Of a stretch of 62,195 nt of DNA, positions 30,653 through 57,747 are shown piece after piece. Source of the DNA: a virus (taxonomy: Duplodnaviria; Caudoviricetes); the IMG/VR virus record IMGVR_UViG_3300042539_001868, positions 1 through 62,195 of that record. One strand, given 5' to 3'. The translations under genes were made by a program, and so were the position numbers. Position 1 is the first letter of the stretch; each line of letters starts with the position of its first letter. The notes beneath the pieces are model-generated. The model saw only the letters and a program-made list of their open reading frames with translations. It ran no database searches and was not told the DNA's origin.

Positions 30653-30658
30653 AAAAAT

Positions 30659-31342: not shown

Positions 31343-31344
31343 AA

Positions 31345-31983: not shown

Positions 31984-31984
31984 T

Positions 31985-35599: not shown

Positions 35600-35600
35600 T

Positions 35601-36431
35601 TTAATTTAAATTTTGATTGTAATAATTTGCAGCGTTTAATTCTGATTTTTTGTATTTGTCTATATTTCTTTGTGTATCGTATCCTGAAGAATCTGACCAA
35701 AAACAATGTATGAAATTTTTTCTATAATCAATAAATTTATAACCTTTTAAATACATTTCTCTAAACCATTTTGTACCCAAATCTAATCCGTATTCGCCAA
35801 ATAAAGAAACGTCACCCAAAGGTTTACATTCTTTCATTACTATTTCTCTATTTATTAAACACGACCATTCATTCATTCTACATTCAGGTAATGGTTTTGG
35901 ATTATTTTTATCTATCATACTTATTTGAGTCCTTACATGTGGGTAACTTAAAGTATATAAAACATCATAACTAATATCAACTTCATTAAAAATTTCACCA
36001 CTACAAAGATTATTACTTTTCGCGGGACAATTCCAACACTGACCTATTTGACCAATACTAAGATTTTCACCAATTAAATTTAGCATGTCCCCGATAATAT
36101 CGCCAGTATAAAGAACATCATTATGAGTTACAAATACGAATTTTTTATCACTTTTTTCAAATCCATATTGATATCTAACTTTAAATCTATCATTTTCATT
36201 TTTATAATCAATTGACGATGAAATAAAAGAATATGTATTTGGTTCGTAAACAATTAAATTATCAAAATAATCATAAATCCAAGTCACATTTTCATTGTTT
36301 GGTTGTTGTTTTTCTTTTATTAAAAAAATTTTGTCTATATGTTGTTTTGAATGTTTTAATAGACTTTTTAGAGTACTTAATGTTTGCCAAGGTTTACCAT
36401 AAACATTAATTATAACATCAACTTTATTCAT
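35601..36431 (-). CDS. GT2-like glycosyltransferase
   Basis: VDVII.VYGKP, FVTHND and DLG..WF; glycan-cluster context. Confidence 0.6.
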   Translation of the reverse strand: MNKVDVIINVYGKPWQTLSTLKSLLKHSKQHIDKIFLIKEKQQPNNENVTWIYDYFDNLIVYEPNTYSFISSSIDYKNENDRFKVRYQYGFEKSDKKFVFVTHNDVLYTGDIIGDMLNLIGENLSIGQIGQCWNCPAKSNNLCSGEIFNEVDISYDVLYTLSYPHVRTQISMIDKNNPKPLPECRMNEWSCLINREIVMKECKPLGDVSLFGEYGLDLGTKWFREMYLKGYKFIDYRKNFIHCFWSDSSGYDTQRNIDKYKKSELNAANYYNQNLN

Positions 36432-42343: not shown

Positions 42344-45300
42344 ATGGCATCTCAAAATATTAACCAATATGTTTATCCGAACTTGTTCCCGCAACTTAGT
42401 TTGGAATCATATGATATGTCTTTAACCTCAGATGAAAGAGATTTCAATCAAGAAGTTGTGTTCTCACCGTATCTGATTGCACAAACATATGGTAATAGAT
42501 TGCCTTTTTATTTTGACATTAATAACACAAATTCCGCTCAAAATTTAACACTCAATTATAAAGAGTATAATAGGAATAATATTTTTGTTTCTGAGAATTA
42601 TTACAATCCTGATAATATAGATTTTTCTTGTGTAACATCGGGTCAATCATGCGATATAGGACTCACAGGTATTGATAATGGTTTAGTTCAAAACATGACA
42701 GGAGAAACAATAACATTTACAAATGGATTGTTACCTAATTTACTCAAATTCGATAGAATGAGTTTTGATAGAAGATTAAAACTTTTCCAAGTCACTGGAA
42801 ATACAAGTGACCCAAATATTAGATTTTCAGGATTTTCTGATAGAGTTTTATACGAAGTTGTAAGTAAGTTTAGTCCATTTGAAGGTAGATATCACGAACT
42901 ATACGGAGGTTTTTATCAAGGTTTTTACAAATTATTTGGTTACGATTATGAAATTTTTCCTGAAAGGATGAATAAGGGGTGGACGGTTGAAATGATTTTA
43001 AAACCAAGATTTGTAAACGAATATGAACCAACTGAAGGTGAAACAACCTTAAATAAAATATACCCAAATAATAAAAATACTTTCTTTTATTTTGGAGGTA
43101 GGGCGGAAAATAAATTTTATCATCATGCCGATGGTACTCAAGAATGTTATACAGGATATACAAGAGTTACATCAGATTTAACAACTCTTGAAACTTGCGC
43201 TTGTTGTAATACAAGTGTAACAAACAGTAGATGTATATATGTTTACCCTCCAAGGTCTGTAAATAACGTTCACGACCCACATGTAAATTATGGATGTGAT
43301 TTATGTGGTGGAAATAAAGAAAAACGAATTAGTTGTGGTTGTGATTGTAATAGTACTGCTTGTGAAACTTGTGGTTGGGAGTGTCAGACTCATATTTGTC
43401 CAACACCAAGCCCAACACCAACACCAACACAATCAGTAACTCCAACACCAAGCCCTACTTCAGGATTGTTACCTACAATAACACCAACTCCAAGCCAAAC
43501 GACTGGATTAACACCAACTCCAAGTCCCACTCCCGGATTAACACCAACTCAAACCGTAGTGACTGATATTTTCAGAGGTTTATATTTGAATGACTTTAAT
43601 ACAATTATTGGAAATCCAACTGAGGAACAAAATGTTTATAATTGGGTTCAAAACAATAAAATCAACCATGTTTATTGTTATGATTTAACTCCAATTTTGG
43701 CAACACTTACAGGTCGAAATAATGTTAGAAATTTTAATACGACCATTAGAAACTACGGTGTTTTAAAAATTGCGGGTATCGGTGCTACGGAAAAGACATT
43801 AATTGGTAGTGGTACTACAGGTCAAAACTCAAGAGTTTATTATAATAATGAGTGTACTCAACCTTCACAAAAATACGATATTTTAAATATCGAAAATGAA
43901 TATTGGAATTATAATGGTGCGAGCCCTTATATAAATCCGGGAACAAATGGTCAAATAAGATATGACAACGGTACTAACTTAGATTGGAAATCTCAAAACG
44001 GAAACGTTTATCAATACGGTATTACAAATAATATTGAATCTGATGTATACCAAGGAATAATTCGTGACGGAAAAAATAGCCCTCCAACCCCACCATTCAA
44101 TTTAAAAGTACCTGATACAACAATTGCTCTTGATTTAGTTAATAACTCAAGAAGATTATTAATAGATTGTTATTTGACAACCGCACAATTCACATCATCA
44201 CCTGATGCAGGTTTCAATCATATTTTAACAAGATTAACACTTTTAGGAAACGCGTCATTATCATCGTCCAAAGTCACTGAAATTGTTATATTGTTCAACG
44301 CTAAAGACGCGTTTATGAAATCTTATTTCGTTGCCAATCCTTTAGATTCCGCCTACAATACCGTATTGTCATCATTTAATAGTAATACTTTTTCAGGTAA
44401 AGCGGGTGTGAAGTTAGTTGGTTTTATGATGTTTGGTTATCAACAAGTTAAAGACATTTTAAATGTTCAACAACAAAATTTATTTTTACCACCAACTCCA
44501 ACACCATCTTTAGAAGTATGTGATGTTATTAAACCTGTTTGCACACCTACATGTACTAAATGTGATACTTGTACAACTTGTGATAATTGTACTTCAGGTT
44601 GGACATCAATTGAAAATACTTGTGAAACCGACCCACTGTTAGATGCAAACGGTATTTCATTTAGATTATGTGGTGACCCTAAAAATCCTCAAATCGGGGT
44701 TAGAGCGATAGTTTTTACAGGACAATGTGAAACTACAGGTACTTGTTCAAACACAGGTTCAACATATGTAACTGGTTACACCATTGTTGATTACTGTAGC
44801 CCTCCGATATATCCTTATTGTTTATCGGTTAATCCCGCATATTTGGAAGAGGAACATTGGTTTCAATTAGATGCTGTTTGGGAAAGATATACTTGGTTAG
44901 ATAATTGTGATTTATGGTACAGAGGTGGTTTAGGTAATATAACTGAGAAACTATATTTGGAAGGTTTAGCCAATAATACTAGCTCTTTAATTACTGTACC
45001 ATATACCCAAGAAAATGGGAAAACATCAGAACAAATTGAATTGATTAATTTAAATTCAAAATGGTTTGATGAAAAAAAATATAGAAAAGGAAGACTCAAA
45101 TTTTATATCAATGGTAAGTTATTTTACACTATTGAAGATTTTGAAGAGATTATTCCAAGAGCTTTGAGTACGGATAAAGAAAAACAAGTCGGAGTTCCAT
45201 TTAATGTTTCTTGGGGTGGAGGAACACAAGGTTTGAGAGAGAACTTAACCTTCTCATCGATGACACAACCTTACGGACCATACATACAAGACCCTGAATG

Positions 45301-46291
45301 TTTTCCAATTAATGATTTATCGGGAACAACACTTAATAGATTAAAAACTAATATAATAATAGAACAAAATTTTGCGGGAACTTTTGAAGGCGCTATTTCA
45401 CAATTCAGAATGTATGTTACACCATTAAGTGCTCCTGAAATTAAACATAATTTTGATTTATTAAAAAATACATTTAGGATGTTTAATCCTGATTGTCCAA
45501 ATTGTGAGAACCCTTGTCCTCCAAATGATTTTACATATCAAATTATTGAACCAACCACAACAACCACAACCACTTCACCTATTACAACCACGACTACAAC
45601 AATAATACCGACCACGACCACAACTACAATTTTAACACCATTTGGTTTAGGTCGAGAATTATCGGCGGATAAAAGAGATTTAAATTATCTTATTTCAAAT
45701 AAATTACCAAGACCAAAAATTTCAATTTCTGAAAGATATTGGGATGATGAAAGATGGTGGGGAGACCAAGGTAATACACCACAATGTGTTGGGTACGCAT
45801 GGTCACATTGGATTGATGATGGACCTATAATACATGCCGGTAGAAGACCAAATGTAAATCCGACAACTTTATATAGAGAATCACAAAAACGTGACCAATG
45901 GCCGGGTGAAAACTACAATGGAACATCAGTTAGAGGTGGTGCTAAATACTTACAAGAAATTGGTAAGATTAAATCTTACTTATGGGCGTTTGATGTTCAA
46001 ACTTTAATGAATACTGTTTTAACACAAGGCCCTGTTGTTGTTGGTACTAATTGGTATTATAACATGTTTTTTCCTGATAGGAATGGATTAATAAGAGCGT
46101 CTGGTAGATGGATGGGAGGTCACGCCTACGTTATAAATGGTGTTAACACAAAAACACAATTATTTAGAATCAAAAATAGTTGGGGTAGAAATTGGGGTCA
46201 AAAAGGAAGAGCGTTTATAAGTTTTTCTGATATGACAAGATTGATAAGAGAAGGTGGAGAAATATGTTTAGGAACTGAAAATAAATTTTAA
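42344..46291 (+). CDS. Large virion protein: LamG-like scaffold with Cys-rich/PT inserts, inserted TIM-barrel-like domain and C-terminal papain-like (C1A) peptidase
   Basis: LamG-like GWTVEMILKP, KFYINGKL and F.G.ISQFRMY..PLS..EI..NF; peptidase DQG..PQCVGYA, GGHAYVING and IKNSWG..WG..G. Confidence 0.75.
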   Translation: MASQNINQYVYPNLFPQLSLESYDMSLTSDERDFNQEVVFSPYLIAQTYGNRLPFYFDINNTNSAQNLTLNYKEYNRNNIFVSENYYNPDNIDFSCVTSGQSCDIGLTGIDNGLVQNMTGETITFTNGLLPNLLKFDRMSFDRRLKLFQVTGNTSDPNIRFSGFSDRVLYEVVSKFSPFEGRYHELYGGFYQGFYKLFGYDYEIFPERMNKGWTVEMILKPRFVNEYEPTEGETTLNKIYPNNKNTFFYFGGRAENKFYHHADGTQECYTGYTRVTSDLTTLETCACCNTSVTNSRCIYVYPPRSVNNVHDPHVNYGCDLCGGNKEKRISCGCDCNSTACETCGWECQTHICPTPSPTPTPTQSVTPTPSPTSGLLPTITPTPSQTTGLTPTPSPTPGLTPTQTVVTDIFRGLYLNDFNTIIGNPTEEQNVYNWVQNNKINHVYCYDLTPILATLTGRNNVRNFNTTIRNYGVLKIAGIGATEKTLIGSGTTGQNSRVYYNNECTQPSQKYDILNIENEYWNYNGASPYINPGTNGQIRYDNGTNLDWKSQNGNVYQYGITNNIESDVYQGIIRDGKNSPPTPPFNLKVPDTTIALDLVNNSRRLLIDCYLTTAQFTSSPDAGFNHILTRLTLLGNASLSSSKVTEIVILFNAKDAFMKSYFVANPLDSAYNTVLSSFNSNTFSGKAGVKLVGFMMFGYQQVKDILNVQQQNLFLPPTPTPSLEVCDVIKPVCTPTCTKCDTCTTCDNCTSGWTSIENTCETDPLLDANGISFRLCGDPKNPQIGVRAIVFTGQCETTGTCSNTGSTYVTGYTIVDYCSPPIYPYCLSVNPAYLEEEHWFQLDAVWERYTWLDNCDLWYRGGLGNITEKLYLEGLANNTSSLITVPYTQENGKTSEQIELINLNSKWFDEKKYRKGRLKFYINGKLFYTIEDFEEIIPRALSTDKEKQVGVPFNVSWGGGTQGLRENLTFSSMTQPYGPYIQDPECFPINDLSGTTLNRLKTNIIIEQNFAGTFEGAISQFRMYVTPLSAPEIKHNFDLLKNTFRMFNPDCPNCENPCPPNDFTYQIIEPTTTTTTTSPITTTTTTIIPTTTTTTILTPFGLGRELSADKRDLNYLISNKLPRPKISISERYWDDERWWGDQGNTPQCVGYAWSHWIDDGPIIHAGRRPNVNPTTLYRESQKRDQWPGENYNGTSVRGGAKYLQEIGKIKSYLWAFDVQTLMNTVLTQGPVVVGTNWYYNMFFPDRNGLIRASGRWMGGHAYVINGVNTKTQLFRIKNSWGRNWGQKGRAFISFSDMTRLIREGGEICLGTENKF

Positions 46292-46294
46292 GTT

Positions 46295-46780
46295 ATGAAT
46301 GAGTTAATAATAATAAGTAGTGAAAATTGGGATGGACAAGATGTAAACATTTTGTTTAAACCTGATAATGATGAAATTGTTTTAAATTTAGGTGACGTAA
46401 CACTACCGTTTACTTTTCAACCAAGTTTATTGATTCCTCCAAGGGAAATATATGGCACTTATACTATTGTTACATTGAGTGGTGGATGTCCATATTTTTT
46501 AAATGTGATAAGACCAACACCTACCCCTACACCAACTATAACGGTTACTAAAACGCCAACACTTACTCCTACACCTACAATCACCCCTACGCCAACATTT
46601 GACCCTTGTAAAGTTCCCACACCGACACCATCAATTACTTCAACTCCAACCGTTACACCGACAATTACAATAACTCCATCATCAACTTGTACAAATCCAT
46701 GTGGATGTCCTGACCCAAGCAAGACTCCAAAACCTACGACAACACCAACACCAACTCCGTCTTACAATACTTGTAATTAA
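46295..46780 (+). CDS. Pro/Thr-rich virion protein
   Basis: N-terminal small beta domain ([15 protein letters not shown]...C) followed by a PT-repeat tail with Cys. Confidence 0.7.
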
Positions 46781-46841
46781 CCATACCTTTATTCTTAAAC
46801 TTACTGTTCTATAATTTAATGGACTTAACTATTTATTGTTG

Positions 46842-49800
46842 ATGCAATTAATAACGATTACTGGCGCAACAGGTGTCGGACCTTATAACATATATGTTTG
46901 TGACATCACACTAACCACATGCGTTCAAGTTGCAAGTTCAACCCCAATACCCCCAAGTTACAGTTTTTACTTACCTAATGTATTTGTTGGTGTTAATCAA
47001 GTCATCGTAAAGTTATTAGATTTAAGTGATGGGTGTGAATATTTCAACATCTATTATTGTAACTTTCCAAGTAATACTCCTACAATTACACCAACAGTTA
47101 CTCCAACAATGGATGTTAATTGTAATTGTTTAATTTTCAACAATACATCTTCATCAATACAAAATATTAGTTACACACAGTGTGACGGTAATGTTTTCTA
47201 TGGAACAATCGCAGGTCTTACAACATTATACGTCTGTGGTAAATTACCATCAACGGATGACCCAAGTGTAACAATATCTATTACAAAACCTTGTGTAGAT
47301 GGTTCTTGTCCTCCACCAACACCGACAATTACAACAACTCCAACTGTTACACCTACAAATACATTTACTAACACTACAACACCTACAATAACTCCAACGG
47401 TTTCAATACCATCATTAAATTTATTTTTCCAAGAATGTTGTGACCCAACCAAAACTTTTATAGTTACAGGAATTCCTGGTTATTTAGTATTTCCAATCGG
47501 AAGTGTTCACTATATTCAAACACCAAGTTATTCGGCCTGTTCAGAGGTGATAAACCCAACTTTTGTAAGTGCGGTTTATCCTTACTCATCATCATTATTT
47601 CACTCAGATTGTATTTCTTGTGTGGCAACACATTTATGTCCTTCACCAACACCAACTGTTACCCCAACAACCACCCCAACCCCTGTAACTCCAACAGTTA
47701 CACCTACAATTACAACTACCCCTGTAACTCCAACAGTAACCCCAACTAACACGGTAACACCAACTATTACTGTAACACAAACACGACCAAAAGTAATTTA
47801 TTTAGTTAAACAATGTTGTCCATCAACACCACCTCCTACGTCAACACCAACAGTTACACCTACTAGAAACTCAACAATATACAAAGTTAGAAAATGTTGT
47901 CCAAACGCAATTTATCGAGTGAAGAGATGTTGTCCTTCAACACCACCTCCTACACCAACTCCAACCGTAACACCAACAAGAAACTCAACAATTTATCGAG
48001 TAAAGAAATGTTGTTCTGAGCCAGCTCCTACACCAACCGTAACCGCAACTAACACTCCTACAAGAACTCCAACCAGTACCCTTGTTACCGCAACTCCAAC
48101 TATCACTCCGACAAATACTGTTACACCTACCGTAACACCAACGAATAATTTTACAATAATGACGTTGAGGTCGTGTTGTTTATCACCAGCACCTACCCCG
48201 TCCCCAACAACTACAAACACTCCAACTATAACACCAACAAATACCGTCACTCCAACATCACCGTTGAAAAATGTTTTCTTCCGTGATTGTTGTGATGAAA
48301 CAAATTTATTTTTATTACAAGGAGTTCCTCCTTTTTATTCGACATCAAGTGGTGATACCTACATTGTAGGTAGTTCGGGATTCAATGGTTGTGCAACTGT
48401 AATTCCTCCAACGTCTGTATTAAATGTTTATACGTATACATCATTATCAGCCTCTACGGATTGTAACACTTGTATTGAAACTCAGCCTTGTCCTACACCG
48501 ACTGTGACTCCAACAACAACAGCCACTCCAACAACAACTCCAACTGTTACACCAACTGTGACAATTACAATAACTAACACTCCTACAGTTACACCGACTA
48601 ATACCGTAACACCTACTATAACTGTAACTCCTACTAATTGGACTGTAAGAGAAGCCATTCCTTGTTGTTTATGTAATGGTTTACCTATTCAGTATGTTAG
48701 CGCTCCGATTACTTTATCAGGGGGTATTGTGTTTTTAGGTAGTGATGGTCAGTGTTATCAATTAGGTGACCCTATCAATACATCACCCACAATTACTTAT
48801 GTAAACGGTGGATATGGATTTAGTTGTGAGGCATGTTTCAATGATTGTTTGGGAACTGGTACAACACATCCTTGTCCTACTTCTACTGTAACACCTACTG
48901 TTACTCCTACAATCACACCGACTCCAACTAAAAACTTCACAATAATGACTTTAAGGTCTTGTTGTTTATCTCCAATACCAAGTCCAACAACAACCCCTAC
49001 AATCACGCCAACTATCACAACAACTCAAGTAACACAAACTCCGACACCTACCAATACATCAACACCTGTCACTCAAACTCCGACTCCAACTAACACGTCT
49101 ACACCTGTAACTCAAACTCCAACCCCTACTGTTACTGTAACACCTACTGACAACTTTACAGTTATGACTTTGAGAAGTTGTTGTTTAACTCCTTTACCAA
49201 GTCCAACACCAACAAATACTGTTACTCCTACAATTACTGTAACACCAACAAATTGGTTAGTTAGAGAAGCAATTCCTTGTTGTATTTGTAACGGTCTTCC
49301 TATTCAATATGTTAACGCACCGACAACATTGGCGATTGGTTTAGTTTTCTTAGGTAGTGATGGTCAATGTTATCAACTAGGTAATCCTGTTTATCAAATA
49401 CCTACAATAACTTATGTGAATGGTGGATATGGTTTCAGTTGTGACGCTTGTATATCTGATTGTATTGGAATGGGTATGCCTCATCCTTGTCCTACTTCTA
49501 CCATAACACCAACCCCAACTAATACTCCTACAATATCTGTAACACCTACAATTACTCCGACTAATACCCCAACAATTACACCAACTCCAACTAAAAACTT
49601 TACAATAATGACTTTAAGAAGTTGTTGTTTATTCCCTATTCCAAGTCCTACACCAACAGTTACTCCAACTCAAGTAACTCAAACACCAACTCCGACTAAT
49701 ACCGTAACCCCAAGTATTACTCCAACTATAACTACAACTCCGGTAACACAAACTCCAACACCGACTAACACCGTTACTCCAACAATCACACCTACACCAA

Positions 49801-50366
49801 CTAAAAACTTTACAATAATGACTTTAAGAAGTTGTTGTTTGTTCCCTATTCCAACTCCTACTCCTACTCCATCAATAACCCCTACCATTACAACAAGCCC
49901 TGTAACTCCTACAGTCACTCCGACAAATACTTCTACACCTGTTACTCAAACACCTACGCCTTCAGTAACCTCAACCCCTGTAACTCAAACACCTACTCAA
50001 ACAGTTACTCCAACTCCTACAATTAACTTTACTATAATGACTTTAAGAAGTTGTTGTTTGAATCCTATTCCTACACCAACTGTCACTCCGACAATTACTC
50101 CAAGTTCAGTGACTCCAACTCCAACAATAACGCCAACAATTACTCCGACAATAAACTTTACAATTATGACATTACAATCTTGTTGTTTAGTTCCCGCTCC
50201 AACACCAACGAATACAGTAACCCCTACTATAACCGTAAGTCAGTCTGTAACTCCAACACCATCGGTTACACAAACACCTACCCCATCACAATTGGTGTAT
50301 AAACAGTTTCAAGATTTAAGTTTCTTTGAATTTATGGACAACGTTCCTTACAACTTCCAAAATTAA
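46842..50366 (+). CDS. Mucin-like Pro/Thr-rich fibre/scaffold protein with Cys domains and 11 orphan strand-CC peptides
   Basis: Probable start ATG 46842; N-terminal ~73-aa domain, TPT repeats, four complete 6-Cys-type domains, 7x NFT(I/V)MTL(R/Q)SCC, 4x IYxV(K/R)xCC; C-terminal KQFQD..F.FMD..Y.FQ motif. Confidence 0.8.
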   Translation: MQLITITGATGVGPYNIYVCDITLTTCVQVASSTPIPPSYSFYLPNVFVGVNQVIVKLLDLSDGCEYFNIYYCNFPSNTPTITPTVTPTMDVNCNCLIFNNTSSSIQNISYTQCDGNVFYGTIAGLTTLYVCGKLPSTDDPSVTISITKPCVDGSCPPPTPTITTTPTVTPTNTFTNTTTPTITPTVSIPSLNLFFQECCDPTKTFIVTGIPGYLVFPIGSVHYIQTPSYSACSEVINPTFVSAVYPYSSSLFHSDCISCVATHLCPSPTPTVTPTTTPTPVTPTVTPTITTTPVTPTVTPTNTVTPTITVTQTRPKVIYLVKQCCPSTPPPTSTPTVTPTRNSTIYKVRKCCPNAIYRVKRCCPSTPPPTPTPTVTPTRNSTIYRVKKCCSEPAPTPTVTATNTPTRTPTSTLVTATPTITPTNTVTPTVTPTNNFTIMTLRSCCLSPAPTPSPTTTNTPTITPTNTVTPTSPLKNVFFRDCCDETNLFLLQGVPPFYSTSSGDTYIVGSSGFNGCATVIPPTSVLNVYTYTSLSASTDCNTCIETQPCPTPTVTPTTTATPTTTPTVTPTVTITITNTPTVTPTNTVTPTITVTPTNWTVREAIPCCLCNGLPIQYVSAPITLSGGIVFLGSDGQCYQLGDPINTSPTITYVNGGYGFSCEACFNDCLGTGTTHPCPTSTVTPTVTPTITPTPTKNFTIMTLRSCCLSPIPSPTTTPTITPTITTTQVTQTPTPTNTSTPVTQTPTPTNTSTPVTQTPTPTVTVTPTDNFTVMTLRSCCLTPLPSPTPTNTVTPTITVTPTNWLVREAIPCCICNGLPIQYVNAPTTLAIGLVFLGSDGQCYQLGNPVYQIPTITYVNGGYGFSCDACISDCIGMGMPHPCPTSTITPTPTNTPTISVTPTITPTNTPTITPTPTKNFTIMTLRSCCLFPIPSPTPTVTPTQVTQTPTPTNTVTPSITPTITTTPVTQTPTPTNTVTPTITPTPTKNFTIMTLRSCCLFPIPTPTPTPSITPTITTSPVTPTVTPTNTSTPVTQTPTPSVTSTPVTQTPTQTVTPTPTINFTIMTLRSCCLNPIPTPTVTPTITPSSVTPTPTITPTITPTINFTIMTLQSCCLVPAPTPTNTVTPTITVSQSVTPTPSVTQTPTPSQLVYKQFQDLSFFEFMDNVPYNFQN
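48147..50186 (+). repeat. Seven dispersed 33-bp coding repeats (NFTIMTLRSCC)
   Basis: Copies start at 48147, 48933, 49152, 49596, 49806, 50025 and 50154; copies 4 and 5 share an identical ~44-bp DNA stretch. Confidence 0.9.
48636..49490 (+). repeat. Duplicated 80-aa Cys domain (NWxVREAIPCC...HPC)
   Basis: Copies at 48636-48875 and 49251-49490. Confidence 0.85.
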
Positions 50367-50429
50367 AAGTCAAGGTATTCAGAAAAATTTAAAACGACTT
50401 ATATTTATGATTAAAAAGAATAAAATAAT

Positions 50430-53123
50430 ATGGCTTGTAATAACCAATATATTGTAGAAGATTGTTGTAACTCATCCAACAGTTTTAGAGTGGGCGACAT
50501 TTGTATTGCCGGATTAAATGATGGGGATATTTTTTATACTGAATGTTCAGGATTAACTACAGGTTCAACAAGTTTTACTTTTAGTGGATGTGTTATAGTT
50601 AATAGTTTAGCCTCAGTTTTGGCCAATGCCGCGGACACATTCAGTGCGTTAACCTCGTATACGGCGTGTACTGATTGTCAAACTGCGATAAGTGGTACTC
50701 CTTGTCCAACCCCAACACAAACGGTTACTCCAACTCCAACAACTACAAATACAAGTGGTTTAATATATCTAACCGCTCAAATGTCATTACCCGCTAACTT
50801 AACGGTTGGTATGGTAGTAACAGACTCGAGTGGAAATTGTTGGGAAATTATTGCAACAACAGGTACTACACCAACAATTACTTGGGGTAATCAAATTTTC
50901 CCTGTTGGTGGATGCGCGTCTTGTTTAACGGTAAACCCTTGTCCTACATTAACTCCAACCGTAACACCTACTAATACTCCTACTAATACAGTTACACCTA
51001 CAGTAACACCAACATCATTAGGTTGTCAGGCTTACAATATTCAAGTTAATACAGGAATCAGTGGTTGTACATTTACTTATACAGATTGTAGTGGGGCGAC
51101 ACAAACTGTAACAATTACAAGCGGAATGTCAAATACGGTTTGTGCTTTATTACCACCAACAACAAGTTGTGGAGCATCAGCATACACTATAACAAACATT
51201 GGTAATTGTTGTCAATCTTATCAAATACAAGTAGGTTCAGGAGTAAGCGGTTGTACGTTTAGTTATGTAGATTGTAGTGGAGTTACACAAAATGTTACAA
51301 TCACAAGTGGTAATACAAATATACTTTGTTCATTAACAACACCAACAACAAGTTGTGGTGCATCTGCGTACACAATGACAAACCAAGGATTCTGTTGTCA
51401 AACATATAATATTAATGTTAATTCAAATGTTACAGGATGTACTTTCAGTTATATCAATTGTAGCGGATTTAACCAAACTGTTACAGTATTAAGCGGTTTA
51501 CCACTATCTGTATGTTCTATTATAACACCAACCACAAGTTGTCCGTCATCGGCATATACTATGACAATGTTAGGTAGTTGTTGCTCATATTACAATTTAT
51601 CTGTTGTTGATAGTTCATGTACATTCAATTACATAGATTGTAGCGGAAATAGTCAATCAGTAGTTGTAACAAGTACTGGTTCAACTAATGTTTGTTCATT
51701 GGTCACACCTACAACAAGTTGTAATCCAACAGGATATACAATAACAAGTGCGTCAACATGTAATCCTTGTATTACTTATACTTTAACTAATAATAATTTA
51801 TCACCTTATACGTTTAATTACACTGATTGTAGTGGAGTTACTCAATCGATAACTCTTTCTGGTACAGGAGGAAATGGTGTCATTTGTACCATATCACCAC
51901 CACCTGTTATAAGTGGTGTGACAGTTGTAGCTTCAGGTAATTGTAATCCTTCGACTTGTTATTATGTATCTGTACAAGCGGGCGCAACATACGAGTGTTA
52001 TATTGATTATGATGACCCTATTTCAGGATTCACCACTATTGTAATACCTTCCGCAACTACTGTTAATGTTTGTTCAACAAGTTTACCGGTCGTTTCGGCA
52101 ATATCGGCGGTTTGTTCACCAAGCGATGTAGTGATTATAGCGGGAAGTGCCTGTACTTCTAATGTTAATTCTTTAGGTTATACGTGGGATTGTCCTACAG
52201 TACAATGTAAATGTTGGGATATATACATCGAAGCTCCGACAAATTGTACCGTACCTTATGTTGATTGTGATGGAATAATTCAGTTTTACGCACTCAGTGG
52301 TGGTACAACAGGAAACACAGTTTGTTCTCCTTATCAACCTAATTTAACAAGTTGTGGTGTTACCTATACCGCAACAACTAGTGGAGATTGTGCCGTAGCT
52401 ATTAGTGGACTTTACGAATGTGTACCTTGTACTACAGAGTGTCTTACATTAGGATATGATGAACTTTCAGGTACAATTCAATATTATGATTTGACCGCAA
52501 ATACCTCAACCGTTATTGTAACTTCACTTATTGTTGATGACATTGCCAGTACAAGTAGTTATATTTGGGGTTTCGCAGGTACAAACATATACGAATATCC
52601 GTGGGATAGTTGTCCGCTTTCATTCAGTGCTGCTAGTAGAACTATTACTATAACAGGTTTTACAGGTTCTGTATTAGGTTCAACATCAATTGGAGTTAAC
52701 AACAATCAATTAATATGTAGCGATGGTGGTTCAAACAATATTTATGAATTAGATATAACAACAACAACCGCAATCCAAACTTTAATTTTATCGGCGCCTG
52801 TTGGTAGAGAGTTTGTTAACGATATTTCATATTCGGCAACCGATAAATTATTAACAATTACAAGTGGGGCTAGCGGTTATTATATAACTCAATTTGATTA
52901 TAATACCGCGGTTCAAGAAGTTGATGTTCTTTGGTCGGCAGGTACAATACCATATTCGTTTATTTCGGAGTCTACTAATTTATATGTTGTTGACAACTTA
53001 GGTGATATTTATCAAATCCAAACTACAACACCATATACACAAACTTTTGTACAAACACCTTCATCTCCGTTTAAGTATACGGCACAATACTCAAGGATAT
53101 GTTTCCTTAATAACTTAACATGA
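50430..53123 (+). CDS. Cys-rich fibre/adhesin: 6-Cys domain, incomplete Cys domain, tandem YxDCSG repeats and C-terminal beta-propeller-like domain
   Basis: About seven repeats C..Y.I...GCTF.Y.DCSG..Q.VT...VC...PTTSC; C-terminal DDIA.T, I.ELDIT and ITQFDY...EVD motifs. Confidence 0.7.
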   Translation: MACNNQYIVEDCCNSSNSFRVGDICIAGLNDGDIFYTECSGLTTGSTSFTFSGCVIVNSLASVLANAADTFSALTSYTACTDCQTAISGTPCPTPTQTVTPTPTTTNTSGLIYLTAQMSLPANLTVGMVVTDSSGNCWEIIATTGTTPTITWGNQIFPVGGCASCLTVNPCPTLTPTVTPTNTPTNTVTPTVTPTSLGCQAYNIQVNTGISGCTFTYTDCSGATQTVTITSGMSNTVCALLPPTTSCGASAYTITNIGNCCQSYQIQVGSGVSGCTFSYVDCSGVTQNVTITSGNTNILCSLTTPTTSCGASAYTMTNQGFCCQTYNINVNSNVTGCTFSYINCSGFNQTVTVLSGLPLSVCSIITPTTSCPSSAYTMTMLGSCCSYYNLSVVDSSCTFNYIDCSGNSQSVVVTSTGSTNVCSLVTPTTSCNPTGYTITSASTCNPCITYTLTNNNLSPYTFNYTDCSGVTQSITLSGTGGNGVICTISPPPVISGVTVVASGNCNPSTCYYVSVQAGATYECYIDYDDPISGFTTIVIPSATTVNVCSTSLPVVSAISAVCSPSDVVIIAGSACTSNVNSLGYTWDCPTVQCKCWDIYIEAPTNCTVPYVDCDGIIQFYALSGGTTGNTVCSPYQPNLTSCGVTYTATTSGDCAVAISGLYECVPCTTECLTLGYDELSGTIQYYDLTANTSTVIVTSLIVDDIASTSSYIWGFAGTNIYEYPWDSCPLSFSAASRTITITGFTGSVLGSTSIGVNNNQLICSDGGSNNIYELDITTTTAIQTLILSAPVGREFVNDISYSATDKLLTITSGASGYYITQFDYNTAVQEVDVLWSAGTIPYSFISESTNLYVVDNLGDIYQIQTTTPYTQTFVQTPSSPFKYTAQYSRICFLNNLT

Positions 53124-53138
53124 TAAAAAATATTATAT

Positions 53139-54878
53139 ATGGTAGATTTAGATAATTGTGATGTAATTTATATATCGGGAAACGATATATATGGTTACGT
53201 ATATTCCTCAAATACGTCAACTTTGTTAAACGCATATTTTTCAGGGTTAACACCATCATTGATGGATGACATTGCTCATACCTCAACAAAATTTTGGCAA
53301 ATAAAAACAGGTGGAACAATTGATGAGTGGGATATCACATTATCTCCATTTGGGGCGACTTATAATAGAACAATCACAATACCGGTACCATACAACATTT
53401 ATGCGGCTCTATTTGCAATAGATAATACAACATTAATTTCGTATGATTCAAATAGTTTACAAATTGTTGAGTTAGATATCACAGGTTTAGTTGCAACAGT
53501 TACACCAAAATTTTCAGCTCCTTTAGGTAGGTCTTTTGCAATTCAAGACATAACCTACACAACAACGGGAAAATTAATATGTCCAACATTTTTAGGTGGT
53601 CAATATTATATTTCTCAGTTTGATTATGTAACTGGTTTATTAGAAGTTGACGTACCAATAACACCGACCATAAGTGGTCCGATGAATTTCTTTGTTGATA
53701 GTGGAAATTTTTACGTGATTAACTTTTCAGGTGCGGTATATAACATTGGTTTATCTTCACCTTACCCAATTACTTTCACACAAAACACGGGATACCCAAC
53801 CAAGGGAGCGTCTCAAATTGCAAGTTGTGTAGATGTAGTTTTTTCTCCGCCACCTACACCAACAATAACACCTACTAATACCATAACACCAACTCCAACT
53901 GTGACTCCCGGTTTATATTATGCCGAAGGAAATATTTTATTACCCGTAGGTTTACCACCCGGAACTGTTGTTGTAGATACTAATGGTAATTGTTGGGAGA
54001 TTATCGTTGAATCGGGAACAACAACCAACTTAACTTGGAATGGTGAAATATATCCAAGTGGTTGTACAGACTGTTTAGCCGTACATCCTTGTACTACCCC
54101 AACACTTACACCTACAAATACCGTAACTCCAACACCAACAAGTGAACCTTTATGTGTTTCTAGTGGTGCGTGTGAACCATTTTTATGGGCTGGCTCAACC
54201 CCATATTTGTATGATTTTACGGCAAATACTACAACTAATTTATCACCTTATGTCCCATCTGGTTTTACTTCAGGAGAACCTATTGGAGTTTCTGAAAATT
54301 ATTTATTTACTTGGTCTGAAGGTTCCCAAGAATTATATCAATATCAAATAACATATTGTCCATTTTTGTTTTCAACAGTTTGTACATATAATTTAAGTGG
54401 ATATAGTTATAATTTATTAATGGCGACTATCAACGACAATACAGTATTGTTGGGTGGTGGTAATTATATTGACCAAATAGATTTAAATATCACCGCATGT
54501 ACCGCATCTGCAACAACAATATTTAATCCGGTTTCAACTTTCCCTGGTAGAATTGCAGACGCTGAGATGTTATACACCTCAACAGGTAAATTAATTTGTA
54601 TAACTGAAACATTTACAGGAAGTAGTTATTGGATTACTCAATACTCATATCCATCAGGTACTGTTGAAGTTGATATTGATATTACCGCAATTTGTAGTGC
54701 TAGTACACCTACCACAATGTTTGTACATAATTCTTTATTTTATCTTGGTATGTTGAACGGAGATATTTTCAATATCCAACTTACAAGTCCTTATACACAA
54801 ACTTATGTTCAAAGTTCAGGACAATTTACAATTAATTCAGGTCAATCTGCGACTTGTGCAAACGTGAATTTTACTTAA
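53139..54878 (+). CDS. Putative adhesin with two beta-propeller-like domains joined by PT linkers and an incomplete Cys domain
   Basis: Both halves resemble the C-terminal domain of 50430-53123 (Y.T.TGKLIC, I(S/T)Q(F/Y).Y..G..EVD, SPY). Confidence 0.65.
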   Translation: MVDLDNCDVIYISGNDIYGYVYSSNTSTLLNAYFSGLTPSLMDDIAHTSTKFWQIKTGGTIDEWDITLSPFGATYNRTITIPVPYNIYAALFAIDNTTLISYDSNSLQIVELDITGLVATVTPKFSAPLGRSFAIQDITYTTTGKLICPTFLGGQYYISQFDYVTGLLEVDVPITPTISGPMNFFVDSGNFYVINFSGAVYNIGLSSPYPITFTQNTGYPTKGASQIASCVDVVFSPPPTPTITPTNTITPTPTVTPGLYYAEGNILLPVGLPPGTVVVDTNGNCWEIIVESGTTTNLTWNGEIYPSGCTDCLAVHPCTTPTLTPTNTVTPTPTSEPLCVSSGACEPFLWAGSTPYLYDFTANTTTNLSPYVPSGFTSGEPIGVSENYLFTWSEGSQELYQYQITYCPFLFSTVCTYNLSGYSYNLLMATINDNTVLLGGGNYIDQIDLNITACTASATTIFNPVSTFPGRIADAEMLYTSTGKLICITETFTGSSYWITQYSYPSGTVEVDIDITAICSASTPTTMFVHNSLFYLGMLNGDIFNIQLTSPYTQTYVQSSGQFTINSGQSATCANVNFT

Positions 54879-54928
54879 TTTCTATTTATTAATAGTTAAA
54901 AATTTTTATTTTTCTTATAAAAAGAATT

Positions 54929-56173
54929 ATGAAAATTTTTATACAAATAGCCTCTTTCAGAGACCCACAACTTTCTTTAACTATTAAAAGTATGTTGGAA
55001 AATGCCAAGAAACCTAAAAACTTGGTTATTGGTATATGTAACCAATATAACAAAGATGATGAATTTAATATTGATGAATTCAGAAATGACAAAAGATTTA
55101 AAATTATAGACGTTTTGGATGTTGAATCCAAAGGAGTTTGTTGGGCTAGAAATCAAGTACAACAATTATACAAAGGAGAAGACTATACTCTTCAAATTGA
55201 TTCTCATATGAGGTTTGAAAAAGATTGGGATGATACTTTGATTAAGATGGTAAAACAACTTCAAGAAAAAGGATTTGAAAAACCTTTATTAACAGGTTAT
55301 GTATCATCATTCAATCCTGATAATGACCCCGCGGAAAGAGTTAAAGAACCTTGGAGAATGGCCTTTGATAGATTCATTCCTGAAGGTACGGTATTCTTTT
55401 TACCTGAAACAATTCCTAATTGGCAAAACTTAACTGAACCTATTCCCGCAAGATTTTATTCCGCCCATTTTGCATTCACTTTAGGTAAATTTAGTGAAGA
55501 GGTTCAACATGACCCTGAATTTTATTTTCATGGTGAGGAGATGTCAATTGCGGTTAGAGCCTATACACATGGGTATGATTTATTCCACCCACATAAAGTT
55601 GTTATTTGGCATGAATATACAAGAAAAGGAAGAATAAAACAATGGGATGTTGATAGAGATTGGGTAAATAAAAATAATTCATCACATAAAAAAAATAGAA
55701 AATTATTTGAAATGGATGGTGAAGTTAATGATATTAATTTTGGTAAGTACGGTTTTGGAACTGAAAGAACTTTACGTGATTATGAAATATATTCCGGTAT
55801 TCGTTTCCAAAAAAGAGCAGTACAACAATATACTTTAGATAAACAATATCCTCCAAATCCAACAATTTACAATTCTGAAGAAGAATGGGAAAATAGTTTT
55901 GCAAGTATATTCAAACATTGTATTGATATTAATTTCTCACAAGTACCTGAACAAGATTATGAGTATTGGGTGGTTGCTTTCCACAATGAAAAAGACGAAA
56001 CCATTTTTAGAAAAGATGCCGATAAAAATGAAATTGCTAATATGATGAGAGACCCTGATGGTTATTGTAAAGTATGGAGAGATTTTCAAACAACACATAA
56101 ACCAAAATATTGGGTTGTATGGCCTTATAGCACATCTAAAGGATGGTGTAATCGTTTAACAGGGAATTTGTAA
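54929..56173 (+). CDS. GT60/Gnt1-like polypeptide N-acetylglucosaminyltransferase
   Basis: IFIQIASFRD, GVCWAR, LQIDSHMRF..DWD (DxH), A.FAF, DP..YF.GEE...A.RAYT.GYD.F.P and WH.Y match the GlcNAc-transferase (GT60) family. Confidence 0.8.
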   Translation: MKIFIQIASFRDPQLSLTIKSMLENAKKPKNLVIGICNQYNKDDEFNIDEFRNDKRFKIIDVLDVESKGVCWARNQVQQLYKGEDYTLQIDSHMRFEKDWDDTLIKMVKQLQEKGFEKPLLTGYVSSFNPDNDPAERVKEPWRMAFDRFIPEGTVFFLPETIPNWQNLTEPIPARFYSAHFAFTLGKFSEEVQHDPEFYFHGEEMSIAVRAYTHGYDLFHPHKVVIWHEYTRKGRIKQWDVDRDWVNKNNSSHKKNRKLFEMDGEVNDINFGKYGFGTERTLRDYEIYSGIRFQKRAVQQYTLDKQYPPNPTIYNSEEEWENSFASIFKHCIDINFSQVPEQDYEYWVVAFHNEKDETIFRKDADKNEIANMMRDPDGYCKVWRDFQTTHKPKYWVVWPYSTSKGWCNRLTGNL

Positions 56174-57114: not shown

Positions 57115-57747
57115 ATGAATTTTAAAGAAAGAATAACAAAAGAAAGTAATTTAGATGTAAACGATAGTTTGTCGGCTTATATGGGTCATGCGGCACAACA
57201 AAATCATAACGTATATGAAGTTTTTTATAACTTTTTAAATGATGTAAGACCAAAACGTATTTTAGAAATTGGAACTGCTTTAGGGGGGTTTACAAAATTT
57301 TTGAAGTTGGTAAGTGACGAACTTAATTTAGATATTAAAATTTTAAGTCTTGATATTCACTACAATCCTTGGTACGTAGAAATGATTGATTCAGGTATTG
57401 ACATAAGAGTTGAAAATGTTTTTAATTCTGACTATACAGAGGTTTACGACTATGTAAAAAATTTCATGCAATCCGAAGGTACGACCTTAGTTCTTTGTGA
57501 TGGTGGAGATAAAGTAAGAGAATTCAATCTTTTATCAAAACACATCAAAGTAAATGATTTTATCATGGCTCATGATTATGCTGAAAATAGTGAGGTTTTT
57601 AAACAAACCGTAGATAAAAAAATTTGGAATTGGCATGAAATATCTGATAGTGATATAATACATTCTTGTAATGAAAACAATGTAAAAATTTATCAAAAAG
57701 AAAATTTTGAAAACGTGGCATGGACATGTAGGAGGAAAGAACTATGA
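57115..57747 (+). CDS. SAM-dependent methyltransferase (CmcI/Methyltransf_24-like)
   Basis: ILEIGT..GG, DI, LVLCDG and I.AHD motifs. Confidence 0.75.
   Translation: MNFKERITKESNLDVNDSLSAYMGHAAQQNHNVYEVFYNFLNDVRPKRILEIGTALGGFTKFLKLVSDELNLDIKILSLDIHYNPWYVEMIDSGIDIRVENVFNSDYTEVYDYVKNFMQSEGTTLVLCDGGDKVREFNLLSKHIKVNDFIMAHDYAENSEVFKQTVDKKIWNWHEISDSDIIHSCNENNVKIYQKENFENVAWTCRRKEL

What the first reader, a model, noticed from the sequence alone, without database searches (positions are those of the whole stretch)
46842..54878. Candidate split-domain 'scaffoldin' system: orphan strand-CC peptides on a mucin-like stalk and partner proteins lacking exactly that strand
Seen: complete domains in this locus have the pattern [beta-strand]-CC...P....G.V....C(W/Y/S)....CxxC....PC, with six core Cys (e.g. 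LFFQECC...HLC, KNVFFRDCC...QPC, NWTVREAIPCC...HPC, YIVEDCC...TPC). ORF 46842 also has 11 peptides that contain only the strand+CC; ten are followed by PT linker and one directly by another such peptide. Seven are NFT(I/V)MTL(R/Q)SCC (48147, 48933, 49152, 49596, 49806, 50025, 50154) and four are IYxV(K/R)xCC (about 47793, 47871, 47907, 47985). The next two genes each contain the rest of the domain without the strand-CC: GLIYLTAQMSLPANLTVGMVVTDSSGNCWEII...GCASCLTVNPC (50757-50942) and GLYYAEGNILLPVGLPPGTVVVDTNGNCWEII...GCTDCLAVHPC (53910-54092). These have four Cys, leaving two unpaired. Inference: the orphan peptides complete the partners' domains in trans (donor-strand complementation) and are locked by two intermolecular disulfides. 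A long stalk could then display about 11 propeller-bearing subunits, like a cellulosome scaffoldin or a branched receptor-binding fibre. Two peptide classes and two partners hint at orthogonal specificity. I know of no description of this in phages.
Basis: partly seen in the sequence, partly recalled or inferred. Interest (0 to 1): 0.92.

Follow-up and report, generated by a model that had tools for sequence, protein, structure and literature searches.

The report
Split cysteine module in phage fibres
A lake-water phage carries a long proline/threonine stalk protein studded with eleven conserved copies of just the first strand of a small cysteine-rich module, next to two propeller-bearing proteins whose copy of that module lacks exactly this strand, which suggests, but does not prove, a new way of clipping receptor-binding proteins onto a stalk.

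Summary
ORF 46836-50366 has 15 CC sites: 4 open complete modules and 11 are isolated strand-CC peptides in PT linker. The next two genes each carry one module that lacks strand 1 and the CC.

The module is an undescribed ~70-residue, six-Cys unit. It has no Pfam or PHROG model and no PDB fold match. It is common in aquatic phage fibre-like proteins.

Across 316 proteins, strand-less internal modules occur only in D/E orthologues. PT-flanked orphan peptides were seen only in this ORF (for modules; the last 114 proteins were not scanned for orphans).

The orphans are under purifying selection, with pN/pS 0.12 against 0.41-0.47 in the flanks. Family-wide co-loss of Cys shows that the final PC Cys normally pairs with a CC Cys. 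D/E keep it.

Independent lake metagenome contigs reproduce the gene, with one 210-base unit variable. D/E domains fold as beta-propellers.

Trans-complementation explains both oddities most simply, but binding is untested and the complex prediction gave no verdict. My confidence is about 0.4. The rivals are self-stapling peptides combined with self-sufficient four-Cys modules.

The parts
46836..50366 (+). ORF C, 1176 aa (first ATG at 46842). A PT-rich stalk protein (P+T 490 of 1176 residues, 60 Cys) with an N-terminal ~75-aa domain, one ~60-aa Cys-rich unit, 4 complete modules and 11 orphan strand-CC peptides.
   Evidence: No Pfam family. The N-terminal 275 aa are 30-36% identical to many fibre-like 'surface proteins' with DUF285/BspA C-termini.
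47406..47651 (+). Complete module 1 (LFFQECC...HLCP), six Cys.
   Evidence: HMM row winC/195-270.
47793..48014 (+). Cluster of four class-1 orphan peptides: VIYLVKQCC (47793-47819), TIYKVRKCC (47874-47900), AIYRVKRCC (47907-47933) and TIYRVKKCC (47988-48014). It is built as two 114-nt units that are 80% identical.
   Evidence: (family D8). PSSM scores 6.8-8.7 bits as module strand 1. pN/pS 0.305.
48147..48182 (+). NFT-class orphan 1 (NFTIMTLRSCCL).
48258..48497 (+). Complete module 2 (KNVFFRDCC...QPCP), six Cys.
48630..48887 (+). Complete type-II module (NWTVREAIPCCLCNG...HPCP), eight Cys. This is the module that was folded.
   Evidence: AF2 pLDDT 70.4, strands 4-11, 21-26, 34-37, 42-49, 55-64, helix 66-74. 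No PDB fold match at E<=1e-3.
48933..48968 (+). NFT-class orphan 2.
49152..49187 (+). NFT-class orphan 3 (NFTVMTLRSCCL).
49245..49499 (+). Second complete type-II module (NWLVREAIPCCICNG...HPCP), 77-78% identical to the first.
   Evidence: pN/pS against the first copy 0.30.
49596..49631 (+). NFT-class orphan 4. It lies in the 210-base unit (49587-49796) that one X13 contig lacks.
49806..49841 (+). NFT-class orphan 5.
50025..50060 (+). NFT-class orphan 6.
50154..50189 (+). NFT-class orphan 7 (NFTIMTLQSCCL).
50430..53123 (+). ORF D, 897 aa. Order: complete module (50430-50714, nine Cys), PT linker, strand-less module (50742-50951), PT linker, tandem ~62-aa Cys-rich units (about 51024-52394), propeller-like domain (52395-53120).
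   Evidence: The exact sequence is on 11 contigs, in a cluster of 16 members.
50757..50942 (+). Strand-less four-Cys module of D (GLIYLTAQMSLP...CWEII...CASCLTVNPC).
   Evidence: The same in 8 of 8 D-cluster members that cover it.
53139..54878 (+). ORF E, 579 aa. Order: propeller-like domain (53139-53843), PT linker, strand-less module (53895-54104), PT linker, second propeller-like domain (54153-54875).
   Evidence: AF2 of aa 1-235 gave pLDDT 67.1. Foldseek found 494 PDB chains at E<=1e-3, and all the listed top hits are beta-propellers.
53910..54092 (+). Strand-less four-Cys module of E (GLYYAEGNILLP...CWEII...CTDCLAVHPC), 49% identical to that of D.
   Evidence: Kept in orthologues 97%, 95.5% (553 of 579) and 82% identical.
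46295..46780 (+). ORF B, 161 aa: a small N-terminal domain plus a PT-rich tail with 6 Cys. Its likeness to the N-terminus of C is weak.
   Evidence: BLASTP E 0.02 over 8 residues only.
42344..46291 (+). ORF A, 1315 aa: a PT-linked multidomain protein ending in a papain-like peptidase. It is the first gene of the same-strand block.
   Evidence: Peptidase_C1 E 3.3e-6. phrog_16701 E 9.6e-53.
54929..56173 (+). Glycosyltransferase of the PF11397 'GlcNAc' family, directly downstream of E. It is a candidate to glycosylate the PT linkers (inference).
   Evidence: PF11397 E 3.4e-70. phrog_24687 E 7.1e-166.

Best explanation
The window is part of a T4-like, low-GC phage from lake water. Genes A to E form one block of PT-linked, Cys-rich modular proteins of the fibre or adhesin kind.

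They are built in part from an undescribed ~70-residue module. Its order is strand 1, CC, four more strands, a short helix with CxxC, and a final PC. The inferred disulfides are C1-C4, C2-C6 and C3-C5.

My preferred reading is that the module is used here as a split domain:
- ORF C is a long, probably glycosylated stalk. It displays 11 copies (10 in one other assembly) of strand 1 plus CC alone.
- D and E carry beta-propeller domains, which are probably receptor-binding. Each has one module that lacks strand 1 and CC but keeps C4 and C6.
- During assembly a stalk peptide would insert as the missing strand. After release into oxic water, two intermolecular disulfides (C1-C4, C2-C6) would lock D or E to the stalk.

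Shown: the anatomy, the complementary boundaries, selection on the peptides, the uniqueness of both features, the C2-C6 co-loss pattern and the propeller fold.

Inferred: the binding, the disulfide lock, the valency and the glycosylation.
For: 1. Complementary pieces.
- Orphans end ...CCL and the D module starts SGLIY, at the position after CC(L)CN in NWTVREAIPCCLCNGLP.
- AF2 places residues 4-11 of the complete module in a beta-strand.

2. The orphans are functional.
- pS is 0.55 but pN/pS is 0.12.
- Their PT flanks give 0.41 and 0.47. The two complete type-II modules give 0.30.
- The hydrophobic positions F, I, M, L are kept in 7 of 7 copies.

3. C6 normally needs a CC Cys.
- Over 375 modules in 202 proteins: CC with C6 309; CC without C6 1; single N-strand Cys without C6 33 (plus 3 cut); single with C6 7.
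- Odds ratio 1457, nominal p 2.8e-38. The rows are related.
- DCA gives the best matching as C1-C4 3.50, C2-C6 4.45, C3-C5 4.01.
- D and E have lost both CC Cys yet keep C6 and C4. This holds in two paralogues that are 49% identical and in orthologues down to 82%.

4. Uniqueness and adjacency.
- The 15 modules with no N-strand Cys are accounted for by 8 D-type and 7 E-type cluster members.
- Of 29 further propeller proteins with modules, 28 have CC or a single-Cys strand. The one exception is an E orthologue.
- PT-flanked orphan peptides were found only in ORF C, among the window's five proteins, the 56 non-spurious hits and the 120.

5. D and E have no recognised virion-attachment domain. In 10 of 11 distant loci the same propeller domain is the C-terminal part of ~2200-aa proteins.

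6. The gene structure is reproduced in independent lake metagenomes.
Against: - No physical or structural evidence of binding exists.
- Four Cys is an even number. C4 and C6, once freed, sit 9 residues apart next to a low-confidence tail (pLDDT <50 for residues 74-86). They could bond to each other and make the D/E module self-sufficient.
- The covariation analysis supports strand 1 pairing with strand 2 (positions 5-21 and 9-16). It does not settle whether strand 1 is an edge strand whose loss is tolerated.
- The numbers do not match: 11 peptides per C chain against one acceptor each in D and E. This would need many D/E copies per stalk.
- The NFT class scores only 1.2-4.9 bits as module strand 1. 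It also resembles the unit junction AYTMTMLGSCC of D's 62-aa repeats, so its origin is ambiguous.
- Only one lineage shows the arrangement, so there is no independent co-occurrence or co-evolution test.
- A lineage prone to recombination in PT linkers could have produced both fragments without any functional link.
- No close ORF C orthologue was retrieved, so conservation of the orphans across lineages is unknown.
Confidence: 0.4

Rival explanations
1. Two independent features. The orphan strand-CC peptides associate with each other, between the chains of an oligomeric fibre or within one chain. They form short beta-ladders stapled by disulfides that stiffen or bundle the PT stalk. This would work like the interchain cystine knots of collagens (recalled). 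The D/E modules would be self-sufficient four-Cys variants with C3-C5 and a new C4-C6 bond.
For: - All 22 orphan Cys find partners without needing 11 copies of D/E.
- The module family occurs in proteins with collagen triple-helix repeats, which match tail-fibre PHROGs. These carriers are probably trimeric.
- Class-1 peptides come as two units of strand-CC, an 18-residue linker, then strand-CC. This is long enough to fold back in parallel.
- Amphipathic, conserved peptides fit any strand-strand interface.
- Cys number varies naturally in the family: 33 four-Cys modules with a single N-strand Cys and no C6.
Against: - It leaves unexplained why strand-less modules occur only in the two genes next to the only orphan-bearing gene.
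- ORF C has no collagen repeat or other recognised oligomerisation motif.
- Seven NFT peptides is an odd number for pairing within one chain, although 6 are seen in one contig.
- When the family loses the C6 partner it usually loses C6 too (33 of 40). D/E did not.
Confidence: 0.27
2. By-products of recombination in PT linkers. Unequal or illegitimate recombination between the many PT-coding stretches chopped modules at their boundaries in this lineage. This left strand-only and strand-less pieces. The pieces are tolerated spacers or have some unrelated role, such as a glycosylation sequon, metal or host binding.
For: - PT-coding DNA forms 50-copy repeat families across the ORF.
- A unit of 210 bases is present or absent between assemblies.
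- Nine of 11 orphans start with or follow an N-x-T triplet.
- Glycosyltransferase and methyltransferase genes lie on both sides.
Against: - Neutral remnants should decay. The NFT peptides show pN/pS 0.12 at pS 0.55, stricter than the complete modules.
- The flanking motif CCLxPxP is invariant in 7 of 7 copies.
- The strand-less modules keep all four Cys and the module consensus in two paralogues 49% identical, and in orthologues.
Confidence: 0.13
3. Assembly artefact. ORF C is a collapsed or chimeric repeat, and the orphan peptides do not exist in this order in any phage.
For: - Short-read contigs break at 49601-49840, where two units share a long identical run.
- One contig lacks 210 bases.
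- The exact ORF C protein is not in the 15-billion-protein collection, although D and E are.
Against: - Repeat copies are only 64-84% identical in DNA, too diverged to collapse in general.
- Contigs from four other runs match with 0 differences over 46535-49466 and 46707-50900.
- Ten runs in ten studies, not flagged as the possible source, hold 86-97% of the sampled words.
- A 1176-codon open frame in ~36-39% GC DNA, with selection on the peptides, is not what a chimera gives.
Confidence: 0.04

Closest known systems
Donor-strand complementation/exchange in chaperone-usher pili
   Same: A beta-fold that lacks one strand would be completed by a strand from another polypeptide. Repeating this builds a fibre. 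Here the acceptor lacks strand 1 and the donor peptides match strand 1.
   Different: - In pili the missing strand is the C-terminal strand of an Ig-like pilin, and the donor is the N-terminal extension of the next pilin.
- Pili need a periplasmic chaperone and an usher, and no disulfide locks the donor.
- Here the fold is unrelated (no PDB match) and the donors are internal peptides repeated 11 times on one chain.
- A two-disulfide lock is proposed here, and assembly would be cytoplasmic in a phage.
- Binding is not shown.
Cellulosome scaffoldin with cohesin-dockerin pairs (recalled)
   Same: One long protein with PT-type linkers would display many docking sites for catalytic or binding subunits encoded nearby.
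   Different: - Cohesin and dockerin are complete, separately folded domains that bind non-covalently with calcium.
- No cohesin or dockerin family, nor any Pfam family, matches C, D or E.
- The docking element here would be an 11-residue strand.
Split CnaB2 domain (SpyTag/SpyCatcher) and Gram-positive pilin cross-links (recalled)
   Same: A strand peptide completes a truncated beta-domain and is then fixed covalently.
   Different: - SpyTag/SpyCatcher is engineered, and the bond is an isopeptide.
- Here the split would be natural and the bonds disulfides.
- There is no sequence or fold relation.
Interchain cystine knots of collagens, such as the adjacent-Cys knot of type III collagen (recalled)
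   Same: Adjacent Cys pairs at fixed points of an extended, Pro-rich, probably glycosylated chain. This is the model for the rival reading.
   Different: - ORF C has no Gly-X-Y repeats.
- The CC follows a conserved amphipathic beta-strand that belongs to a globular module family.
Phage tail-fibre and surface proteins with the complete module: collagen-repeat fibres and DUF285/BspA 'surface proteins' from metagenomes
   Same: They share the six-Cys module, the PT linkers, the N-terminal ~275 aa architecture of ORF C (30-36% identity) and the propeller domain.
   Different: - Their modules are complete. In some searches every internal module has CC or a single-Cys strand, apart from one E orthologue.
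- None of those scanned for it carries PT-flanked orphan peptides. The 114 proteins were not scanned for orphans.

Membership tests
Six-Cys 'strand-CC' module (unnamed; defined here by an HMM of 151 seeds) | Strand 1 followed by CC. | tested here: met
   Met for the four modules of ORF C and the first module of D. Not met for D 50757-50942 and E 53910-54092, which start after the CC position.
Six-Cys 'strand-CC' module (unnamed) | Core G-x-C-[WYF], CxxC and final (P)C at conserved spacing. | tested here: met
   C42, C66, C69 and C82 are invariant in 37 of 37 aligned modules, including those of D and E. A profile search returned 65 proteins at E<=1e-3, of which I judged 9 spurious by eye.
Six-Cys 'strand-CC' module (unnamed) | Already described as a curated family or solved fold. 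| tested here: not met
   - No Pfam family on C, D, E, or on module-only proteins P0001, P0007 and P0013.
- No PHROG on P0001 and P0007.
- Foldseek against PDB gave 0 matches at E<=1e-3.
Donor-strand complementation system | The acceptor domain lacks one strand of its fold. | tested here: met
   Shown by alignment and HMM rows. Residues 4-11 of the complete module are a strand in the AF2 model at pLDDT 70. This is at the level of sequence and predicted secondary structure only.
Donor-strand complementation system | A donor peptide on another polypeptide corresponds to the missing strand. | tested here: met
   Class-1 peptides score like module strand 1. The NFT class matches more weakly and ambiguously. 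The shared boundary is PT|N-aromatic-T ... CCL.
Donor-strand complementation system | The donor physically completes the acceptor fold. | tested here: inconclusive
   The one complex prediction ended without a verdict. No coordinates or contacts were available from any model.
Donor-strand complementation system | Donors and acceptors co-occur across genomes. | tested here: inconclusive
   - Both features are confined to one lineage.
- No ORF C orthologue was retrieved.
Cellulosome scaffoldin | Cohesin repeats on the scaffold and dockerins on the subunits. | tested here: not met
   Pfam scan of C, D and E gave 0 families at E<=0.01.
Beta-propeller fold (D C-terminus, E both ends) | Repeated four-stranded blades around an axis. 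| tested here: met
   - AF2 model of E aa 1-235: 17 strands, pLDDT 67.1, pTM 0.69.
- Foldseek: 494 PDB chains at E<=1e-3. The listed top hits (BamB, WD40, prolyl-oligopeptidase propellers) have TM 0.37-0.57 on the query.
- Atlas look-alikes are DUF4394/DUF6923 at 0.92, a lead only.
- The blade number is not determined.
- There is no sequence-level family.
Collagen-type interchain cystine knot | CC next to a Gly-X-Y triple helix. | tested here: not met
   No collagen repeat in ORF C. Collagen repeats do occur in other carriers of the module.

The most novel reading that the evidence does not exclude
A natural split-domain docking system in a phage. A glycosylated PT stalk displays ten or eleven strand-1+CC peptides of two classes. 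Propeller-bearing receptor-binding proteins capture these peptides with strand-less modules by strand insertion. Two intermolecular disulfides then lock the complex after lysis. The result would be a multivalent, bottle-brush adhesin whose valency can change by gain or loss of 210-base units.
Probability: 0.35. Interest if true: 0.9.

Novelty: new variant of a known kind. Interest (0 to 1): 0.74.

Why it matters
If the split-module reading is right, it would be the first case I know of with these two properties:
- a phage attaches receptor-binding proteins by donor-strand-type complementation;
- a strand insertion is locked by disulfides.

Two full-text searches found no such description.

It would also offer a small natural peptide/domain pair that becomes covalent on oxidation, which could serve as a protein-ligation tool. 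And it would offer a mechanism for tuning adhesin valency by repeat number.

Some results stand whichever reading is right:
- There is a widespread, uncurated six-Cys module of aquatic phage fibres, with an inferred disulfide map.
- Eleven isolated strand peptides are kept under strong selection in a mucin-like stalk.
- Free-thiol counting and non-reducing gels on two small recombinant domains would decide between the readings.

Tried and rejected
Complex prediction. I sent the D strand-less module (70 aa, 37-row alignment A3) with a 34-aa NFT orphan segment (7-row alignment A4). The tool's verdict was 'no answer'. Scores were 0.58, 0.58 and 0.57; controls were 0.39, 0.01 and 0.00; the margin asked for is 0.20. 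I count it neither for nor against binding.

Looking for relatives' DNA:
- E against viral contigs gave no relative.
- D against metagenome contigs gave 11 loci that share only the propeller domain at 30-34% identity. None has the module.
- Near relatives are withheld by the tools.
- The search for related loci with alignment A2 failed for lack of a conserved stretch.
- A degenerate DNA pattern for the NFT peptide found 0 matches in viral contigs.
- megablast of 46000-55000 against phage records gave no match.

Sequence searches of PDB with D, E and a propeller profile returned only four D matches at E 0.6-0.7 and none for E or the profile. Pfam at E<=10 on the propeller units gave only one sub-threshold Glyco_hydro_2 hit (E 0.012, 16.8 bits against a cut-off of 23), which I take as chance.

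Mean-field DCA on 315 modules (Meff 262) was noisy. Gap-prone columns dominate, and I use only the Cys matching and the strand 1-strand 2 couplings.

B and C N-termini are alike over only 8 residues, E 0.02. I dropped the 'shared anchor domain' idea.

Readings considered and set aside:
- Decayed-remnant reading: rejected on pN/pS.
- Gross mis-assembly: rejected, except for one 210-base unit.
- Reading D's GLIYLTAQMS as strand 1 with CC changed to MS: rejected, because it aligns in length and pattern with strand 2 (xxVEIVSLP) of complete modules.

Rows dropped:
- Nine of the 65 hits were set aside as spurious after reading them: P0017, P0021, P0032, P0033, P0034, P0049, P0056, P0061, P0064 (other repeat proteins).
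- In one search, 16 of 391 HMM hits without a usable CxxC/C3 anchor, or counted twice, were not tabulated.

Literature:
- Searches found nothing relevant.
- One search led to PMC12619734. I saw only four passages of it. One cites Freeman et al. 2023 on glycosylated mycobacteriophage virions, which I did not read.
- No supplements were opened.

The second AF2 job went to the propeller domain, so the strand-less module alone was never folded.

Full report
Context.
- The 62,195-base window is the whole record held. It belongs to a tailed phage.
- ORF 2452-4299 matches the T4-type major head protein family phrog_138 (E 5.9e-67).
- By tblastn it is at most 46% identical to any deposited phage. The best hits are an uncultured 484-kb phage, Microcystis phage Mel-JY01 and Flavobacterium phages.
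- GC is 22-39% along the window. No tRNA was found.
- Twenty sequencing runs, all labelled lake water metagenome, hold 86-99% of the sampled words of 46300-50900. Ten of them, from ten studies, are not flagged as possible sources.

The locus.
- Five same-strand genes run from 42344 to 54878.
- A (1315 aa) ends in a papain-like peptidase.
- B (161 aa), C (1176 aa), D (897 aa) and E (579 aa) have no Pfam family.
- All are chains of small Cys-rich domains joined by Pro/Thr linkers.
- Directly downstream lie a PF11397 'GlcNAc' glycosyltransferase (E 3.4e-70) and an HtrL_YibB protein, and an RMNT/CmcI-type methyltransferase.
- Upstream, on the other strand, lie a double GT2 protein, an FkbM methyltransferase and a phrog_7162 glycosyltransferase.
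- Glycosylation of the PT linkers is therefore a reasonable inference but was not tested. Virion glycosylation by phage enzymes is reported for mycobacteriophages. I know this only from a passage of PMC12619734 that cites Freeman et al. 2023.

The observation.
- The seven NFT peptides share a longer invariant motif, PT-x-NFT[IV]MTL[RQ]SCCL-x-P-x-P.
- The four class-1 peptides form two 114-nt units that are 80% identical.

The module.
- A profile of the four type-II modules was searched against 1.84 billion representative proteins. It found 65 proteins at E<=1e-3.
- After reading them I set nine aside as unrelated repeat proteins.
- The rest carry one to eight copies of a ~70-residue unit. Its pattern is strand-CC, then P....G....D..G.C[WYF], then CxxC, then (N)PC. 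The copies are often in tandem without linkers.
- The carrier proteins also have collagen triple-helix repeats that match tail-fibre PHROGs, DUF285/BspA repeats or PKD domains.
- Proteins made mostly of this unit have no Pfam or PHROG match.
- An AF2 model of the complete module 48630-48887, with a 37-row alignment, has pLDDT 70.4. It shows five strands and a C-terminal helix that holds the CxxC. Strand 1 is residues 4-11, just before the CC.
- Foldseek found no PDB chain at E<=1e-3.
- I conclude that this is an uncurated module of aquatic phage fibre or adhesin proteins.

Disulfide map by natural variation.
- I anchored 375 modules from 202 proteins on their CxxC.
- 309 have CC and the final Cys (C6). 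One has CC without C6.
- 33 have a single N-strand Cys and no C6, plus 3 cut at the protein end. Seven have a single Cys with C6.
- The association is very strong (odds ratio 1457, nominal p 2.8e-38). The rows are related sequences, so the p-value overstates independence.
- Mean-field DCA on 315 distinct modules gives C1-C4, C2-C6 and C3-C5 as the best perfect matching (3.50, 4.45, 4.01).
A module without CC has two Cys (C4, C6) without their usual partners.
- It does not follow that they stay free. They lie nine residues apart and could bond to each other.

Uniqueness.
- Fifteen modules have no N-strand Cys and are not cut by a protein end. They are accounted for by eight D-type and seven E-type members of the two 90% clusters.
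- The other rows without CC are N-terminally truncated metagenome fragments. One further row has a single Cys further upstream.
- A search with E found 114 further proteins that share the propeller domain, and 29 of them have modules. Twenty-eight have CC or a single-Cys strand. The one exception is an E orthologue 82% identical, with the same strand-less module.
- PT-flanked strand-CC peptides were seen only in ORF C.
- Five other 'CC then PT linker' sites turned out to be the C-terminal ends of a different ~100-residue domain.

Selection.
- Among the seven NFT peptides pS is 0.55 and pN/pS 0.12.
- The 12 codons on either side give 0.41 and 0.47. The class-1 peptides give 0.31. The two complete type-II modules give 0.30.
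- The peptides are therefore old and constrained. They are not decaying remnants.

Origin of the peptides.
- On a PSSM of the ten residues before CC in 318 module starts, class-1 peptides score 6.8-8.7 bits. The module mean is 8.0, and 133 other CC contexts average -4.3.
- NFT peptides score 1.2-4.9.
- The NFT class shares its N-boundary (PT|N-aromatic-T-aliphatic) and CCL with the type-II modules of the same ORF.
- It also resembles the unit junction AYTMTMLGSCC in D's 62-aa repeats. Its descent from strand 1 is likely but not certain.

D and E.
- The ~235-aa units at the end of D and at both ends of E are 33-38% identical to each other.
- They are 31-35% identical to the same unit in the eleven distant loci. 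In ten of these it sits near the C-terminus of ~2200-aa proteins. The eleventh is a 421-aa frame in an 8-kb contig.
- The AF2 model of E aa 1-235 (pLDDT 67.1, pTM 0.69) matches 494 PDB chains at E<=1e-3. All the listed top hits are beta-propellers.
- A receptor-binding role is inferred from this position in large fibre proteins. It was not shown.

Assembly.
- Contigs of four runs from other samples lie on the stretch with no differences in their long pieces.
- One contig omits 49587-49796, exactly one orphan-plus-linker unit.
- These are short-read contigs, so the number of units between 49541 and 49867 needs long reads.

Weighing.
- The split-module reading explains four things with one idea: the peptides are conserved, the D/E modules lack just this strand but keep C4 and C6, both oddities sit in adjacent genes of one lineage only, and D/E have no other attachment domain.
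- Against it stand the lack of any binding evidence, the possibility of an internal C4-C6 bond, the 11-to-2 count, the ambiguous origin of the NFT class, and a sample of one lineage.
- I put it at about 0.4.
- The rival is self-stapling peptides plus self-sufficient four-Cys modules, at about 0.27. It fits the trimeric, collagen-bearing carriers of the module but leaves the co-occurrence to chance.
- Recombination by-products with some other role get about 0.13, and artefact about 0.04. The remainder is for explanations I have not thought of.

Limits.
- No model coordinates were returned by the tools.
- The complex job gave no verdict.
- DNA of close relatives was withheld.

Noticed in passing
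window 49587-49796: One 9,874-base contig of run X13 goes from 49586 straight to 49797. It therefore lacks one 210-base orphan-plus-linker unit. This is either a copy-number variant of the stalk or a short-read collapse at a ~40-base identical run.
   Followed up: partly
window 54929-56173, 57115-57747, 57744-59420, 33353-35599, 38326-39543, 31345-31983: Glycan-handling genes lie on both sides of the PT-rich block. They are a PF11397 'GlcNAc' transferase (E 3.4e-70), an RMNT/CmcI-type methyltransferase, an HtrL_YibB protein, a double GT2 protein, a phrog_7162 glycosyltransferase and an FkbM methyltransferase. They may decorate the PT linkers.
   Followed up: partly
window 51024-52394 (D aa 199-655), 47118-47297 (C aa 95-154), and L001-L011 ORF ends: A second uncurated Cys-rich unit of ~60 aa (C-x-x-Y-x-[IL]-x-V...Y.DC.G...VC...C) is repeated in tandem in D, with CC at the unit junctions. 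It occurs once in C. It also follows the propeller domain in the ~2200-aa proteins of distant loci.
   Followed up: no
window 42344-46291: ORF A is a 1315-aa PT/T-linked protein with 39 Cys. Its last ~210 residues are a papain-like peptidase (Peptidase_C1; phrog_16701 E 9.6e-53). This is unusual cargo for a fibre-like protein.
   Followed up: no
window 47868-50189 (orphan peptides): Nine of the 11 orphan peptides begin with or are preceded by an N-x-T triplet (NST, NFT). One of the two type-II modules has NWT. This could be a sequon or merely T-rich context.
   Followed up: no
window 27301-36431, minus strand: A stretch of very low GC (21.5-26%) holds BKACE, a xylose-isomerase-like TIM barrel, an FAD oxidoreductase, methyltransferase and glycosyltransferase genes. 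It looks like a sugar-modification island.
   Followed up: no
window 2452-4299: The major head protein is 615 aa. Only residues 345-592 match phrog_138, so it has a long N-terminal extension of unknown nature.
   Followed up: no
window 46836-50366: The exact ORF C protein (TTG or ATG start) is absent from the 15-billion-protein collection, although D and E of the same contig are present. No relative closer than 36% identity was found in the 646-2058 aa range.
   Followed up: partly
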